Shown here: positions 1,810 to 56,503 of the stretch, piece after piece
Layout of the letters: the number at the start of each line of letters is the position of its first letter
How positions within the stretch are numbered: the first letter of the stretch is position 1
DNA from: Escherichia coli
GTDB lineage: Bacteria; Pseudomonadota; Gammaproteobacteria; Enterobacterales; Enterobacteriaceae
DNA length: 64,000 nucleotides
Assembly: GCF_050920415.1 (NCBI RefSeq)
Contig: NZ_CP169309.1
Reading direction: 5' to 3' (one strand)
Program-made: the position numbers and the translations under genes
The notes under the pieces: generated by a model
Told to the model about the DNA's origin: nothing
The model's input: the letters and a program-made list of their open reading frames with translations, nothing else
Database searches by the model: none

Positions 1810-3161
1810 GTCCCATTCTCCTGTAAAGCGCGTACTACCTCTTCCATGGCAGCACTACGTGAACCCTTAACTAAAATCGTAATTACCTGTTGCTCAGCAA
1901 TCAGTGATTTAAGACGTGTGATAAGCGCAGTTTTATCGGAAAAATGTTCGCCAACGCCGCTGGCGGTGCTGATAGCATGGCTTTGTTTACCCACACTTAA
2001 CACGCGGTCAATACCCGCCGCCTTCGCCGCTTCGCCCACCTGTACATGGCAGGCCTCGCTTTCAGCGCCCAGTTCCGCCATATCGCCCACCACCAGCACA
2101 CGGTAGCCCGGCATTTCAGCCAGTACCTGAACAGCGGCGGTCATGGAGCCGACGTTAGCGTTGTAGGAGTCGTCGAGCAGCAACTGATTTTCCGCCAGTT
2201 GAATGGGGAACAGACGGCCAGGAACAGCTTTCAGATTTGCCAGCCCCGCTTTAATAGCATCAAGCGTTGCGCCCACGGACATGGAGAGCGCAGCGGCTGC
2301 CAGCGCATTCGCAATATTGTGACGCCCCGGCAACGGCAGCAGAACATCGACGCTACCCGTTGGGGTTTGCAGCGTAAATTCCGTACCGTGCGAGGTCACG
2401 TGGATATTGGTGGCGGTGAAATCGCTGTTGTTAGCATTCGGTGAGAAGCGCCACACTTTGCGTGAGCCAATCACACTCTGCCAGTTCAGCCAGTCGTTGT
2501 TGTCGGCATTCATAATGGCGATACCGTTTTCCGGCAGGCCGCTAAAGATTTCACCTTTCGCTTTCGCGACACCCGCAAGCGAGCCAAAACCTTCCAGATG
2601 CGCCGCTGCCAGGTTGTTGACCAGCGCCGCTTCCGGGCGAGTCAGACTCACAGTCCAGGCAATTTCGCCCTGATGGTTCGCGCCAAGTTCAATTACTGCG
2701 TAATCGTACTCTGGCGTTAAGCGCAACAGCGTCATCGGTACACCGATATCGTTGTTGAGATTGCCTGCCGTATAAAGCGTGTTGCCACACTGGCTTAAAA
2801 TCGCTGCCGTCATCTCTTTAACGGAGGTTTTGCCGGAGGAACCGGTCAGAGCAACCACGCGCGCCGGAACTTGCTGGCGAACCCATGCAGCCAGTTCACC
2901 AAACGCCAGACGCGTATCCTTGACGATTAACTGCGGCAGATCGATATCCAGCGGACGGCTAACCAGCAGTGCACCCGCACCGCCAGCTTTCGCCTGGTCA
3001 GCAAAATCATGGGCATCGAAACGTTCGCCTTTCAGGGCAACAAACAGGCAACCCGGCGTCAATTTACGGGTGTCAGTGGTTACAGCATCAAGGGTAATAT
3101 CTGCCCCTTTTAGTTCACCGTTGAGAATATCGGTAAGTTGGCTAAGGGTTACGCTAATCAT
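1803..3161 (-). CDS. murF: UDP-MurNAc-tripeptide--D-Ala-D-Ala ligase MurF
   Basis: 452-aa ORF, MurF-like sequence; 7-nt overlap with mraY start typical of the dcw cluster. Confidence 0.95.
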
Positions 3162-4645
3162 GCAATCACCCCCAGTAGACGCGCTACCGTGACGCGATCG
3201 GAGTAGTCCAGACGCTGGTTGCCAACAATCTGATAATCCTCATGGCCTTTGCCCGCGATCAGCACCACATCATTCTCTTTAGCCTGCATAACAGCGCAAG
3301 TCACCGCTTCAGCGCGGCCTTCCATCACTTTGGCATGTCCGGCGTCCAGCATTCCCGCCAGAATATCGTTGATGATAGCGCGCGGTTCTTCGGTACGCGG
3401 GTTATCGTCCGTTACCACCGCCACGTCAGCAAACTCTTCAGCAATTGCTCCCATCAGTGGACGCTTACCTTTATCGCGATCGCCACCACAGCCAAAGACG
3501 CACCACAGCTTGCCTGCACAGTGAAGACGTGCAGCCTGCAAGGCTTTTTCCAATGCATCCGGCGTATGCGCGTAATCCACCACCACCGTCGGTTTGCCCG
3601 GTGCAGTGAACACTTCCATACGTCCGCAAACCGGTTGCAGACGCGCGGCGGTTTTTAACAGATCAGCCAGCGGGTAGCCAAGTGCCAGCAGCGTCGCCAG
3701 CGCGAGCAGCAGGTTGCTGACGTTAAAAGCGCCCATCAGATGGCTTTCAATTTCGCCATCACCCCAGCTTGAGCTAAAGCGAATAGTCGCACCGCTGTCG
3801 TGATAGTTCACTTCAGTCGCTTTCAACCAGCGTCCGTGACAGTTCGGATTGATATGATCTTCCATTGATACCGCAACCGCGTCCGGCAGTTTTGCCAGCC
3901 AGCGGCGGCCCACTTCATCGTCGGCGTTAATAATCGCCTGACCGCAATGATGCTCAGAATAAAGCAGCCATTTCGCGGCTTCGTAGTGTTCCATATCACC
4001 ATGATAATCAAGGTGATCGCGGCTTAAGTTGGTAAAGACCGACGCCGCAAATTTCAATGCCGCCACACGGTGCTGTACCAGTCCGTGGGAGGAAACTTCC
4101 ATTGCGCAAAAAGTCGCGCCCTGATCCACCAGCCCCGCCAGCTCATGCTGAACATCGACTGCCGAACCGGTGGTATTTTCTGTCGGGATCACTTTTCCCA
4201 GCAGGCCGTTACCAACGGTGCCCATTACCGCGCTGGTTTCGCCAAGCAGTTGGCTCCACTGCGCCAGCAGCTGGGTAGTCGTGGTTTTGCCGTTGGTGCC
4301 CGTTACGCCTACAAGACGTAAATTGTCAGAGGGTTCATGGTAAAAGCGGCCCGCCAGTGCAGATAAACGCTCGTTGAGCTGGCTGAGATAGATGACTGGT
4401 ACGCCGTGCATTTCACGGATTTCACCGTCGGTCGCCTCATCTTTCGCCTCTGCAATAATGGCAGCCACACCTTGCGCTATCGCCTGCGGGATATATCGAC
4501 GCCCGTCCGCCTGATGACCTACTACAGCTACAAAGAGATCGCCCGCCGCAGCCACACGGCTGTCGAGTGTCATCTCTCGCAGTGCTCGCGAAGGTGCGTC
4601 TGGCACCCACGGAGCAAGAAGGTCGCGCAAATTACGATCTGCCAC
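3158..4645 (-). CDS. murE: UDP-MurNAc-L-Ala-D-Glu--meso-diaminopimelate ligase MurE
   Basis: 495-aa ORF, Mur ligase motifs (GTNGKTT), 4-nt overlap with murF. Confidence 0.95.
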
Positions 4646-53745: not shown

Positions 53746-54516
53746 TTAAATGACTTTGCGAAGATTTTCAGCAAATGCGGCGATCTGTTCTTCGCCGTCG
53801 CCTTCAATCACAATGCGCTGACGCTCGCGCTGTTTCGGTGCGGCAACCTGTTGTTCAGACCAGGCTTCCACGGCGTTAAAGCCAATGTCCGCCGCCGACC
53901 ATACCTGGACTGGCTTTTTCGCCGCGCCGAGAATGGCTTTCATTGAAGGAATTTGTGGGGAGTTGATATCAGTGGAAACAGCAACAACCGCAGGCAGCGG
54001 AATGCTTAACGTTTCTGTTTCATCTTCCAGTTCGCGTTCAACGGTGAGGGTATCTGCCGTCAGGGAAATAATTTTGCTGACACCGTTAACGACTGGAATA
54101 TCGAGGATTTCGCCCACCAGCAAACCAACCTGTTGGGCATAAAGGTCGGAAGAACCATCGCCGCAGAGGATCAGATCAAACCCTGCTTTCTGGGCGGCTG
54201 CAGCCAGTGCTGTCGCCGTTTGTTGCGGCAGTGCCTGCTCGAACTGGTCATCAATTACCACAATCAGTTCATCCGGACCGCGCGATAGCACATCTTTACG
54301 CCCTTTGGCATTGGTCAGGGCTTTACCGCCCACACTTAAGGCCGTCACCTGCGCTTCTGCCGCCTGCTGTTTTAACTGACAAGCCGCTTCAATAGCGTTG
54401 AGATCGTATTGGCTTATTTTGGCATCGGCTTTACTGAAGTCTAACGAACCATCAGCATTATTGACCGCAATATCCTGTTCATCAGGCACGCACTTATAGC
54501 AAGTAATAATCTTCAT
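53746..54516 (-). CDS. fixA: Electron transfer flavoprotein beta-subunit homolog FixA
   Basis: 256 aa from [18 protein letters not shown]; ATG at 54516. Confidence 0.94.
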
Positions 54517-54599
54517 TGCATCTCCAGAAATCATGAAGGAAACGTCGTTCATATCGGTGGTGTTAATTACAGATATCACGCCCTTTAATTTGGAAATAA

Positions 54600-54745
54600 A
54601 ACTTTAATCACCAATATTGAAAATGTCACACGCAGATAAATCCAACTTTCAATATTGTTAAGTTCCTCACCAATATTGAAAACACGGCGTAGCAAAAAGA
54701 AATTTTCAATATTGTTTTATGGATCACCAATATTGAAAGTCAGAT
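54600..54745. promoter_or_regulatory. cai/fix divergent control region with five copies of a caccaatattgaaa-type motif
   Basis: Copies near 54607, 54647 (opposite orientation), 54666, 54703 (opposite orientation), 54724; CaiF/CRP operator region by established knowledge. Confidence 0.7.
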
Positions 54746-54985
54746 GCTATTTTTTTACTCATATCAGAACATAACACACTGATTAATAATCAAAATTAAC
54801 ACAAAAATGCCCTCTATTCACCCGAAACAAAAATGTGATAACAATCACAGAATGCAGCTTGTTGAATACCCATTATGAGTTAGCCATTAACGCGTCCACG
54901 AGGTTAATGATAATTATATTAAATGTTAACAAAAATAAAACAAACGGGAACGCAAAATAAATATTCGTTTTCACAGTGGAATTAA

Positions 54986-56503
<1,518 letters not shown>

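What the first reader, a model, noticed from the sequence alone, without database searches (positions are those of the whole stretch)
54600..54745. Array of five caccaatattgaaa-type motifs in the caiT-fixA divergent region
The 470-bp spacer between fixA and caiT contains three copies of (a/c)tcaccaatattgaaa(a/g) in one orientation (near 54607, 54666, 54724) and two of ttcaatattgtt in the opposite sense (near 54647, 54703), at roughly 40-60 bp intervals. The core caatattg is itself palindromic. By established knowledge this region holds CaiF and CRP operators for the divergent cai and fix operons, but five regularly spaced copies is more than a two-site operator requires.
Basis: partly seen in the sequence, partly recalled or inferred. 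Interest (0 to 1): 0.35.

Follow-up and report, generated by a model that had tools for sequence, protein, structure and literature searches.

The report
CaiF operator array with extra half-site
Four of the five repeats are the two published binding sites of the carnitine regulator CaiF between the E. coli fixA and caiT genes; the fifth is a lone half-site inside the fixA core promoter that the papers I could read do not mention, and it is the best-conserved piece of this control region across enteric bacteria.

Summary
CAATATTGAAA occurs five times without mismatch in 127 bp: + strand at 54612, 54671 and 54728; - strand at 54647-57 and 54704-14. It occurs nowhere else in the 64 kb window.

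The window is an E. coli chromosome. Four copies form exactly two TTTCAATATTG-N13-CAATATTGAAA dyads (54647-81, 54704-38). This is the published CaiF operator sequence for sites F1 and F2. So two operators need four copies, and only one copy is surplus.

The surplus copy (TCACCAATATTGAAA, 54608-22) has no partner. It lies between the -35-like GTGACA and the -10 region of the fixA promoter.

- It is conserved in about 50 Enterobacterales species, while the number of dyads varies from 0 to 3.
- It always sits 10 nt upstream of a -10-like hexamer (TTTTAT, TATTAT or TTTAAT).
- Hafnia alvei has a CaiF orthologue and only this lone unit.

My reading is that the lone unit is a promoter-embedded CaiF site, positioned like the site proposed for the family relative GrlA at LEE1 P1. 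Binding and effect are inferred, not shown. The finding is mostly known biology plus one modest, testable addition.

The parts
53746..54516 (-). fixA coding sequence (256 aa). It is the first gene of fixABCX, which is transcribed leftward from the array.
   Evidence: ORF list, translation and RefSeq annotation of identical or near-identical E. coli records.
54596..54601 (-). Conserved -10-like hexamer, TTTTAT on the fixA strand. It is part of the invariant + strand block ATAAAAC (54596-54602).
   Evidence: The block is 100% conserved in 22 species of the five-copy clade. Its equivalents are TATTAT in Hafniaceae/Budviciaceae and TTTAAT in Proteus, always 10 nt from the 11-mer. Its role as a -10 element is inferred.
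54601..54606 (-). Alternative -10 hexamer TAAAGT. It lies 17 bp from GTGACA and fits the published fix start site as I reconstruct it (about 54594).
   Evidence: Promoter scan. This hexamer keeps A at position 2 and T at position 6 only in the Escherichia/Citrobacter/Salmonella clade.
54608..54622 (+). The fifth copy: a lone CaiF-type unit TCACCAATATTGAAA with no partner half-site. It lies inside the fixA core promoter and, with base 54607, exactly fills the 17-bp GTGACA/TAAAGT spacer.
   Evidence: Searches show the sequence. Identity across 22 species is 0.99. It is conserved in 50 species and matches the consensus of the dyad right halves. No partner exists: the best candidate has 4-7 mismatches of 11. 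The surrounding 36-bp block is identical in 5313 of 5389 E. coli genomes.
54624..54629 (-). -35-like hexamer GTGACA of the fixA promoter.
   Evidence: Promoter scan. It is conserved in the five-copy clade and partly in Limnobaculum and Edwardsiella.
54647..54681 (.). fixA-proximal CaiF dyad: TTTCAATATTG-N13-CAATATTGAAA. It is one of the published sites F1/F2; I could not verify which name applies.
   Evidence: Inverted repeat I3; the 13-bp spacing was read directly from the sequence. The sequence matches the published operator exactly (PMC12083890; PMC3680233).
54656..54671 (.). CRP-like site TGTTAAGTTCCTCACC nested in the spacer of the first dyad, centred at 54663.5.
   Evidence: It matches TGTGA-N6-TCACA at 8 of 10 positions. 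Its position fits 'CRP site 2 at -69.5 of fix' in Buchet 1998, which I recall from memory because the paper is not held.
54704..54738 (.). caiT-proximal CaiF dyad: TTTCAATATTG-N13-CAATATTGAAA.
   Evidence: Inverted repeat I8. The published operator sequence is the same. The left half is 0.99 and the right half 0.955 conserved.
54713..54728 (.). CRP-like site TGTTTTATGGATCACC nested in the spacer of the second dyad, centred at 54720.5.
   Evidence: It matches at 7 of 10 positions. It lies 57 bp from the first nested site, which equals the difference between the remembered -126.5 and -69.5.
54834..54849 (.). Perfect CRP site TGTGATAACAATCACA of the cai promoter, centred at 54841.5.
   Evidence: It matches at 10 of 10 positions. 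The half-sites are conserved. Placing it at -41.5 puts the cai start near 54883, with CATTAT (54871-76) as the -10.
54989..56503 (+). caiT coding sequence (504 aa), first gene of caiTABCDE.
62254..62649 (-). caiF, which encodes the 131-aa activator that recognises the repeats.
   Evidence: ORF. Pfam PF07180 CaiF_GrlA, E = 1.8e-6, above the curated cut-off. The nearest solved structure is GrlA, 4KT5 chain C.

Best explanation
The five repeats are the CaiF recognition elements of the divergent cai/fix control region.

Four of them form the two published CaiF operators. Each operator is an inverted repeat of 11-bp half-sites separated by 13 bp, and a CRP-like site sits inside each spacer. CaiF on the flanks and CRP in the middle can then act together on both promoters.

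The fifth repeat is a separate, partner-less unit of the right-half type (TCACCAATATTGAAA). It is built into the fixA core promoter, between the -35-like and -10-like hexamers. I propose that one CaiF protomer binds there and is needed for CaiF-dependent firing of the fix promoter. It would act from inside the promoter, as proposed for GrlA, the family relative, at LEE1 P1. The upstream dyads would serve as auxiliary sites that vary in number between lineages.

Shown here: the anatomy, the match to the published operator sequence, the conservation, and the fixed linkage to a -10-like hexamer.

Inferred: CaiF occupancy of the lone unit, the sign of its effect, and the exact start site.
For: - Two dyads and no more. 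Exactly two TTTCAATATTG-N13-CAATATTGAAA dyads exist, identical to the published F1/F2 operator (PMC12083890; PMC3680233).
- Nested CRP-like motifs. They are centred at 54663.5 and 54720.5, and a perfect one at 54841.5. These positions reproduce the remembered -69.5, -126.5 and -41.5 and the 289-bp separation of start sites.
- Position in the promoter. The lone unit plus base 54607 is the 17-bp spacer of the only fix-strand promoter match, GTGACA-17-TAAAGT.
- Conservation within the five-copy clade. Across 22 species the lone 11-mer scores 0.992 and its TCAC flank 0.989. The four dyad halves score 0.955-0.992, and the whole spacer averages 0.738.
- Conservation across families. The unit is present in Enterobacteriaceae, Morganellaceae, Hafniaceae and Budviciaceae, while dyad number is 0, 1, 2 or 3.
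- Linkage to a -10-like hexamer. The hexamer 10 nt downstream is TTTTAT, TATTAT or TTTAAT in 33 of 34 species.
- No partner anywhere. No species has a partner half-site next to the lone unit.
- Same class as the dyad right halves. Its consensus equals theirs.
- Hafnia alvei. It has a CaiF orthologue (50% identity, PF07180) and only the lone unit in 21.5 kb.
- E. coli population. The 36-bp block is identical in 5313 of 5389 genomes. SNPs seen in the array fall in spacers and gaps.
- Family precedent. CaiF is in the CaiF_GrlA family. GrlA is reported to act at the LEE1 P1 -35/-10 spacer and within -54 to +1 (PMC4730234; PMC6094958).
- One protomer per half-site. A published AlphaFold3 model places one CaiF on each 11-bp half-site.
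Against: - No binding or expression data for the lone unit were available. The accessible papers mention only F1 and F2, and I could not read the 1998 and 1999 primary papers. A published footprint may therefore already include or exclude it.
- The fix start site and the CRP positions come from my memory of an abstract, although they are internally consistent with the sequence.
- The -10 assignment is ambiguous. TAAAGT fits the E. coli start site. The deeply conserved hexamer TTTTAT lies 5 nt further downstream and lacks the usual A at its second position.
- A site inside a core promoter could equally repress.
- Entomohabitans has lost the core of the lone unit yet keeps a dyad.
- In the lone-unit-only taxa I did not show that fix or cai is CaiF-regulated.
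Confidence: 0.6

Rival explanations
1. The lone unit is bound by CaiF but acts negatively. By sitting on the fixA core promoter it would occlude RNA polymerase, keeping fix off without the co-activator or capping expression at high CaiF, while activation comes only from the upstream dyads.
For: The position between the -35 and -10 hexamers is typical of repressor operators. GrlA, the family relative, is also reported to repress flhDC (PMC9979310). Entomohabitans keeps a dyad but has lost the core of the lone unit.
Against: Hafniaceae and most Budviciaceae have only the lone unit together with a caiF orthologue. A purely negative site for a dedicated activator would leave those operons with no positive site. 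Biosensors built on the fix promoter, lone unit included, respond positively to CaiF (PMC12083890).
Confidence: 0.15
2. The array should be read in a different register. CaiF protomers would form a continuous chain in which N24/N22 everted pairs also count, so the lone unit would pair with the left half of the fixA-proximal dyad. The array would then be one nucleoprotein complex rather than two dyads plus a separate promoter site.
For: Perfect inverted pairs exist at 24-nt and 20-22-nt gaps as well (I7 and I5). The lone unit keeps a constant 35-bp start-to-start distance to the first reversed copy in Escherichia, Citrobacter, Salmonella, Yokenella and Proteus. Proteus shows a strict 59-bp period with 7 copies.
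Against: In taxa without any dyad the lone unit still stands at the same distance from the -10-like hexamer, so its conservation does not depend on a neighbour. Published footprinting defined the N13 pairs as the binding units.
Confidence: 0.12
3. The lone unit is conserved as a promoter element, or as the target of another protein, and is not bound by CaiF. Its likeness to the CaiF half-site would reflect common descent by duplication of a 57-59-bp module.
For: It overlaps core promoter positions. The dyad modules look like tandem duplicates: 51 nt at 75% identity, 57 bp apart.
Against: Fourteen contiguous positions stay identical to the CaiF right-half consensus across about 50 species, with the same tolerated variation at the last base. 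Promoter spacers are normally under weak sequence constraint. No other factor is known for this sequence. The 11-mer is absent from 532 kb of flanking DNA.
Confidence: 0.08
4. The fifth copy is a functionless relic: the surviving right half of a third dyad whose left half was overwritten by the fixA promoter.
For: The array has a modular, duplication-like structure, and dyad copy number changes between lineages.
Against: It is the most conserved element of the spacer. It persists in lineages with 0-3 dyads, is never seen with a partner, and is nearly invariant in 5389 E. coli genomes. A neutral relic would have decayed, as the inter-site gaps have (identity 0.48-0.75).
Confidence: 0.05

Closest known systems
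CaiF operators F1 and F2 of the E. coli cai-fix intergenic region (Buchet et al. 1999, Mol Microbiol 34:562, as cited in PMC12083890 and PMC3680233)
   Same: The sequence is identical: TTTCAATATTG-N13-CAATATTGAAA occurs twice, at 54647-81 and 54704-38, in the same intergenic region. The K-12 array is identical to the window.
   Different: The fifth copy is not a dyad. It is a single right-half-type unit with no partner, it lies inside the fixA core promoter, and no paper I could read mentions it.
GrlA at the LEE1 P1 promoter of EHEC/EPEC (Islam et al. 2011, as cited in PMC4730234 and PMC3130263; Padavannil et al. 2013, as cited in PMC6094958)
   Same: The regulator belongs to the same protein family (PF07180). 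The proposed target lies within the -35/-10 spacer and has no dyad symmetry. GrlA is captured as a monomer by GrlR.
   Different: The LEE1 spacer is 18 bp (L087 222-239) and matches the CaiF half-site at only 6 of 11 positions. Here the spacer is 17 bp with TAAAGT, or 22 bp between GTGACA and TTTTAT. CaiF also uses upstream dyads and CRP, which GrlA is not known to do. The resemblance is one of position, not of sequence.
MerR-family activators (MerR, SoxR, CueR), which bind the promoter spacer
   Same: [quoted passage not shown]
   Different: MerR operators are dyads in over-long spacers of 19-20 bp, and the proteins are unrelated coiled-coil dimers. Here there is a lone half-site and a CaiF_GrlA-family protein.
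CRP-dependent divergent promoters with co-activators (for example the malE-malK, melR-melAB and araBAD-araC regions)
   Same: Several CRP sites are interleaved with sites for a pathway-specific activator in a shared intergenic region (PMC3105977 lists caiTABCDE-fixABCX among such cases).
   Different: Here the CRP-like motif is nested inside the spacer of the specific activator's dyad, so both proteins would occupy the same 35 bp.

Membership tests
CaiF dyad operator (F1/F2 type) | Two 11-bp half-sites, TTTCAATATTG and CAATATTGAAA, in inverted orientation | tested here: met
   Met for 54647-81 and 54704-38. For the fifth copy (54612-22) this feature is not met: the best would-be partner has 4-7 mismatches of 11 in 34 species.
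CaiF dyad operator (F1/F2 type) | 13-bp spacer between the half-sites | tested here: met
   Both dyads have exactly 13 bp. The same spacing is found in the dyads of Citrobacter, Salmonella, Yokenella and Proteus. It does not apply to the lone unit.
CaiF dyad operator (F1/F2 type) | Located in the fixA-caiT intergenic region of a genome that encodes CaiF | tested here: met
   Annotation. caiF is at 62254-62649 and matches PF07180.
CaiF dyad operator (F1/F2 type) | Protected by purified CaiF in footprinting or gel shift | not testable with these tools
   Reported for F1 and F2 in papers citing Buchet 1999. Nothing is available for the lone unit.
CRP binding site | Match to TGTGA-N6-TCACA | tested here: met
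   10/10 at 54834-49, 8/10 at 54656-71 and 7/10 at 54713-28. Matches of 8/10 or better occur about once per 3.6 kb in the window. At the lone unit only the TCAC half is present, so the feature is not met there.
CRP binding site | Bound by cAMP-CRP | not testable with these tools
   fixA and caiT are listed as SELEX-confirmed CRP targets (PMC3105977). The site positions -41.5, -69.5 and -126.5 are recalled from the Buchet 1998 abstract, which is not held.
Spacer-binding activator promoter (GrlA/LEE1 P1 type) | The activator belongs to the CaiF_GrlA family | tested here: met
   PF07180 match above the curated cut-off. The best PDB hit is GrlA, 4KT5_C.
Spacer-binding activator promoter (GrlA/LEE1 P1 type) | Recognition element lies between the -35 and -10 hexamers | tested here: inconclusive
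   Met at sequence level. The unit fills the GTGACA-17-TAAAGT spacer, or spans about -33 to -18 relative to the conserved TTTTAT. The start site was not verified here, and occupancy by CaiF is unknown.
Spacer-binding activator promoter (GrlA/LEE1 P1 type) | Non-optimal spacer length that makes the promoter activator-dependent (18 bp at LEE1, 19-20 bp for MerR types) | tested here: inconclusive
   17 bp with TAAAGT, but 22 bp between GTGACA and the conserved TTTTAT. Which hexamers are used is unknown.
MerR-type operator | Dyad-symmetric operator bound by a MerR-family dimer | tested here: not met
   Only an 8-bp palindromic core is present, there is no second half-site, and CaiF is not a MerR-family protein.

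The most novel reading that the evidence does not exclude
The lone promoter-embedded unit, not the published F1/F2 dyads, would be the ancestral and sufficient CaiF-responsive element. A single CaiF protomer bound inside the fixA core promoter would switch it on. This would make binding within the core promoter, rather than upstream of it, a shared mode of action for the CaiF/GrlA family. The dyads with nested CRP sites would be lineage-specific boosters whose number (0-3) tunes output and long-range coupling to the cai promoter.
Probability: 0.3. Interest if true: 0.55.

Novelty: new member of a known kind. Interest (0 to 1): 0.36.

Why it matters
The cai/fix region is a textbook divergent promoter with a model that is about 25 years old: two CaiF sites plus three CRP sites.

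A third CaiF-type element inside the fixA core promoter, conserved more deeply than the known sites, would change how activation is pictured. Contact would occur at the promoter itself rather than only from -69.5 and -126.5. It would also give the small CaiF/GrlA family a common mechanism.

There is a practical side. Current carnitine biosensors are built on the fix promoter (PMC12083890), so knowing which of the five copies matter would guide promoter minimisation and tuning.

If the lone unit proves dispensable, the finding reduces to a correct re-description of known operators.

Tried and rejected
- Tandem Repeats Finder found no array. The modules are too diverged outside the motifs, so the structure is better described as dyads plus a lone unit.
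- Rfam gave no RNA family in 54300-55200, so an RNA element is not supported.
- I looked for a degenerate partner that would make the fifth copy a third dyad. There is none in any of 34 species.
- I considered a CRP site at the lone unit. Only the TCAC half is present, and the position of the other half reads TAAAA in all species.
- I considered a sigma-54 promoter (TGGTGA-N5-GTTTT). The GG-N10-GC spacing is not met when the sequence is read directly.
- I considered a CRP site at AAATGTCACACGCAGATAAAT. The right half is poor, so this is better read as the -35-like GTGACA.
- I compared the LEE1 P1 spacer with the CaiF unit. The match is only 6 of 11, so the analogy is positional only.
- The 1-mismatch hit at 62541 lies inside the caiF coding sequence and is probably chance.
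- The primary papers (PMC107209; PMID 10564497) are not held. Searches for CaiF ChIP, SELEX or DAP-seq data found nothing. Sequence-string searches found the motif only in PMC12083890.
- tblastn found no caiF in the 7.5-kb loci because it lies further away. This was resolved for Hafnia with a 21.5-kb contig.

Full report
**1. What is in the sequence**

The window is an E. coli chromosome. A 701-bp query across the site matches 5399 of 5426 complete E. coli genomes, and the annotation there is fixA on one side and caiT on the other.
- In window coordinates fixA runs leftward from its ATG at 54516. caiT runs rightward from 54989, and the spacer is 472 bp.
- The 11-mer CAATATTGAAA occurs five times without mismatch within 127 bp. 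The + strand copies start at 54612, 54671 and 54728, and the - strand copies lie at 54647-57 and 54704-14.
- It occurs nowhere else in the 64 kb. With one mismatch allowed there are 8 hits against 1.55 expected, and no shuffle reached 8.

**2. Four copies are the published CaiF operators**

Two open-access papers that cite Buchet et al. [quoted passage not shown] Each site is a perfect inverted repeat of 11-bp half-sites separated by 13 bp: 5'-TTTCAATATTG-N13-CAATATTGAAA-3' (PMC12083890; PMC3680233).
- The window contains exactly two such dyads, at 54647-54681 and 54704-54738.
- The K-12 sequence is identical across the whole array.
- A two-site operator therefore already needs four copies.
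- caiF itself lies in the window (62254-62649, - strand). Its product matches Pfam CaiF_GrlA, and the nearest solved structure is GrlA.

**3. Why the motif looks longer than 11 bp**

The 13-bp spacers read TGTTA-AGTTCC-TCACC and TGTTT-TATGGA-TCACC. These match the CRP consensus TGTGA-N6-TCACA at 8/10 and 7/10 positions and are centred at 54663.5 and 54720.5. A perfect CRP site is centred at 54841.5.
- From memory of the Buchet 1998 abstract (the paper is not held), the two start sites are 289 bp apart. CRP site 1 is at -41.5 of cai, and sites 2 and 3 are at -69.5 and -126.5 of fix.
- These numbers fit the sequence in three independent ways. The centres of sites 2 and 3 are 57 bp apart. The implied cai start is 54883 and the implied fix start 54594. 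Those two are 289 bp apart in the window and 288 bp in K-12, which has one T fewer in a T-run.
- I therefore accept them, but mark them as recalled rather than checked.
- Across 50 species the right halves carry ATCAC and the left halves carry TAAC.

**4. The fifth copy**

TCACCAATATTGAAA at 54608-54622 has no partner half-site.
- The only sigma-70-type match on the fixA strand is GTGACA (54629-24), 17 bp, TAAAGT (54606-01). The fifth copy plus one base is that 17-bp spacer.
- Relative to the reconstructed fix start, the 11-mer covers -18 to -28.

**5. Comparative evidence**

A scan of one genome per species with CaiT returned 80 loci. In every Enterobacterales locus with divergent fixA and caiT I mapped the half-sites.

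| Architecture | Taxa |
|---|---|
| Lone unit + 2 dyads (5 copies) | Escherichia, Citrobacter, Salmonella, Pseudocitrobacter, Phytobacter, Intestinirhabdus |
| Lone unit + 1 dyad (3 copies) | Pluralibacter, Yokenella, Trabulsiella, Atlantibacter and two unnamed genera |
| Lone unit + 3 dyads (7 copies, strict 59-bp period) | Proteus |
| Perfect lone unit + degenerate dyads | Providencia |
| Lone unit only | Hafnia, Edwardsiella, Serratia sp. H1w, Leminorella, Limnobaculum |
| Two direct units 27 bp apart | Budvicia |

- Conservation within the five-copy clade (22 species). Identity to the window is 0.992 for the lone 11-mer, 0.989 for its TCAC flank and 1.000 for the adjacent ATAAAAC block. 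The four dyad halves score 0.955-0.992, the whole spacer 0.738, and the gaps between sites 0.48-0.75.
- No partner. None of 34 species has a partner half-site beside the lone unit.
- Linked hexamer. On the fixA strand the hexamer 10 nt downstream of the 11-mer is TTTTAT (23 species), TATTAT (7), TTTAAT (3) or TATTAC (1). This looks like a conserved -10 element at a fixed distance.
- Restricted distribution. The perfect 11-mer occurs 133 times inside these spacers and never in 532 kb of flanks.
- Hafnia alvei. It has only the lone unit, yet encodes a CaiF orthologue (50% identity over the full length, PF07180) next to fixABCX. It has a single perfect unit in 21.5 kb.
- E. coli population. The 36-bp block 54596-54631 is identical in 5313 of 5389 genomes. 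Only 1831 of 5387 reach 99% over the 150-bp array. The SNPs I inspected lie in spacers and gaps, not in any 11-mer.
- Exception. In Entomohabitans the core of the lone unit is replaced, while a dyad is retained.

**6. Which -10 hexamer is used**

TAAAGT fits the reconstructed E. coli start site. It keeps A at position 2 and T at position 6 only in the Escherichia/Citrobacter/Salmonella clade, where GTGACA is also conserved.
- The hexamer conserved in all families is TTTTAT, TATTAT or TTTAAT, 5 nt further downstream.
- Counted from that hexamer, the unit spans about -33 to -18 and its distal end overlaps the -35 position.
- Either way the unit lies inside the core promoter. I cannot decide between the two frames without start-site data.

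**7. Mechanism**

Shown:
- the anatomy;
- identity with the published operator;
- strong purifying selection on the lone unit;
- its fixed linkage to a -10-like hexamer.

Inferred:
- One CaiF protomer binds the lone unit. A published AlphaFold3 model places one CaiF per 11-bp half-site.
- It helps RNA polymerase at the fix promoter from within the promoter.

The precedent is the family relative GrlA.
- GrlA is reported to act at the LEE1 P1 -35/-10 spacer without dyad symmetry (PMC4730234 citing Islam 2011; PMC3130263).
- It is reported to bind between -54 and +1, and GrlR captures it as a monomer (PMC6094958).
- I checked LEE1 P1 in an O157 genome. It reads TTGACA, an 18-bp spacer, TACACA, and the spacer matches the CaiF half-site at only 6 of 11 positions. 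The analogy is therefore positional.

The upstream dyads with nested CRP sites would add cooperative recruitment, catabolite control and the long-range link to the cai promoter. Their centres lie about 162 and 219 bp upstream of the cai start.

From memory, the 1998 abstract also reported a 50-bp sequence overlapping the fix start site that is needed for cai transcription. If its end-points include 54608-22, the lone unit may matter for cai as well. I could not check this.

**8. Rivals**

- Occlusion. A promoter-embedded site could occlude polymerase instead of helping it. The lone-unit-only taxa and the positive response of fix-promoter biosensors argue against a purely negative role but do not exclude it.
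- Continuous chain. The array could be a continuous CaiF chain that also uses the 24-bp gaps. However, the lone unit stays in place where no neighbour exists.
- Other constraint. Conservation as a pure promoter element, or by another factor, is unlikely given the base-by-base identity with the CaiF right-half consensus.
- Neutral relic. The conservation data contradict this reading.

**9. Novelty and verdict**

Four-fifths of the finding is known biology, correctly located. No paper I could read mentions the fifth copy.
- RegulonDB, as I recall it, lists two CaiF sites per promoter. It notes only that the CaiF sites were relocated.
- I rate the finding as a new member of a known kind: a third, promoter-embedded CaiF-type site.
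- Its interest is modest, and it is cheap to test.

Noticed in passing
L084 about 2582-3900 (E. coli CAVP773, NZ_CM176349.1): An IS5-like ISEc35 element is inserted inside the right half-site of the fixA-proximal CaiF dyad, right after CTCACCAA. It separates the lone unit and one half-site from the rest of the array and from caiT.
   Followed up: partly
L053 about 2500-2560; also L044, L046, L048, L049, L022, L043 (alignment A2, columns 322-342): Hafniaceae and Budviciaceae share a near-invariant block, CAATAGAAATACCATGATTCA, on the fixA side of the lone unit. It lies in the start region of the presumed fix transcript. Enterobacteriaceae and Proteus have a looser relative (GCAATGGAATATA...). 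Its function is unknown.
   Followed up: no
L022 2320-2330 and L043 2348-2358: Leminorella and Limnobaculum carry an additional perfect reversed half-site, TTTCAATATTG, only about 25 nt upstream of the fixA ATG, just before the ribosome-binding site. This is some 235 bp from their lone unit.
   Followed up: no
L047 2609-2646 (Budvicia aquatica): There are two perfect TCACCAATATTGAAA units in direct orientation, 27 bp apart, instead of an inverted dyad. This suggests that the 15-bp unit is the basic recognition module.
   Followed up: no
L030 2497-2685 (Proteus mirabilis) and L026-L033, L045: Proteus species carry seven copies (the lone unit plus three dyads) with a strict 59-bp period. This indicates that the number of dyads changes by tandem duplication of a 57-59-bp module.
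   Followed up: partly
Alignment A2, columns 521-565 (L044, L046, L048, L049, L053, L022, L043): In these taxa the cai promoter has TTGATTAAGATCAC, an FNR/CRP-like motif, at the same 22-bp distance from CATTAT as the perfect CRP site has in E. coli. It is followed by GGATTATT, which only loosely resembles a CaiF half-site.
   Followed up: no
L036 about 2625-2660 (Entomohabitans teleogrylli): This is the one exception. The core of the lone unit is replaced (TCACC-CGACGTCGC-TGAAC) and the ATAAAAAC block abuts TCACC directly, while a dyad is retained further upstream.
   Followed up: no
window 54750-54756: There is a T-run length polymorphism: 7 T in the window against 6 in K-12. It changes the distance between the CaiF array and the cai promoter CRP site by 1 bp. 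The region 54740-54830 is the most variable part of the spacer, both within E. coli and between species.
   Followed up: partly
window 54400-55100: The window comes from an uncommon E. coli lineage. Only 4 of 5399 genomes are at least 99% identical over this 701 bp, and most are 95-99% identical. Its CaiT is as close to the E. albertii protein (99%) as to the E. coli species representative (98%).
   Followed up: no
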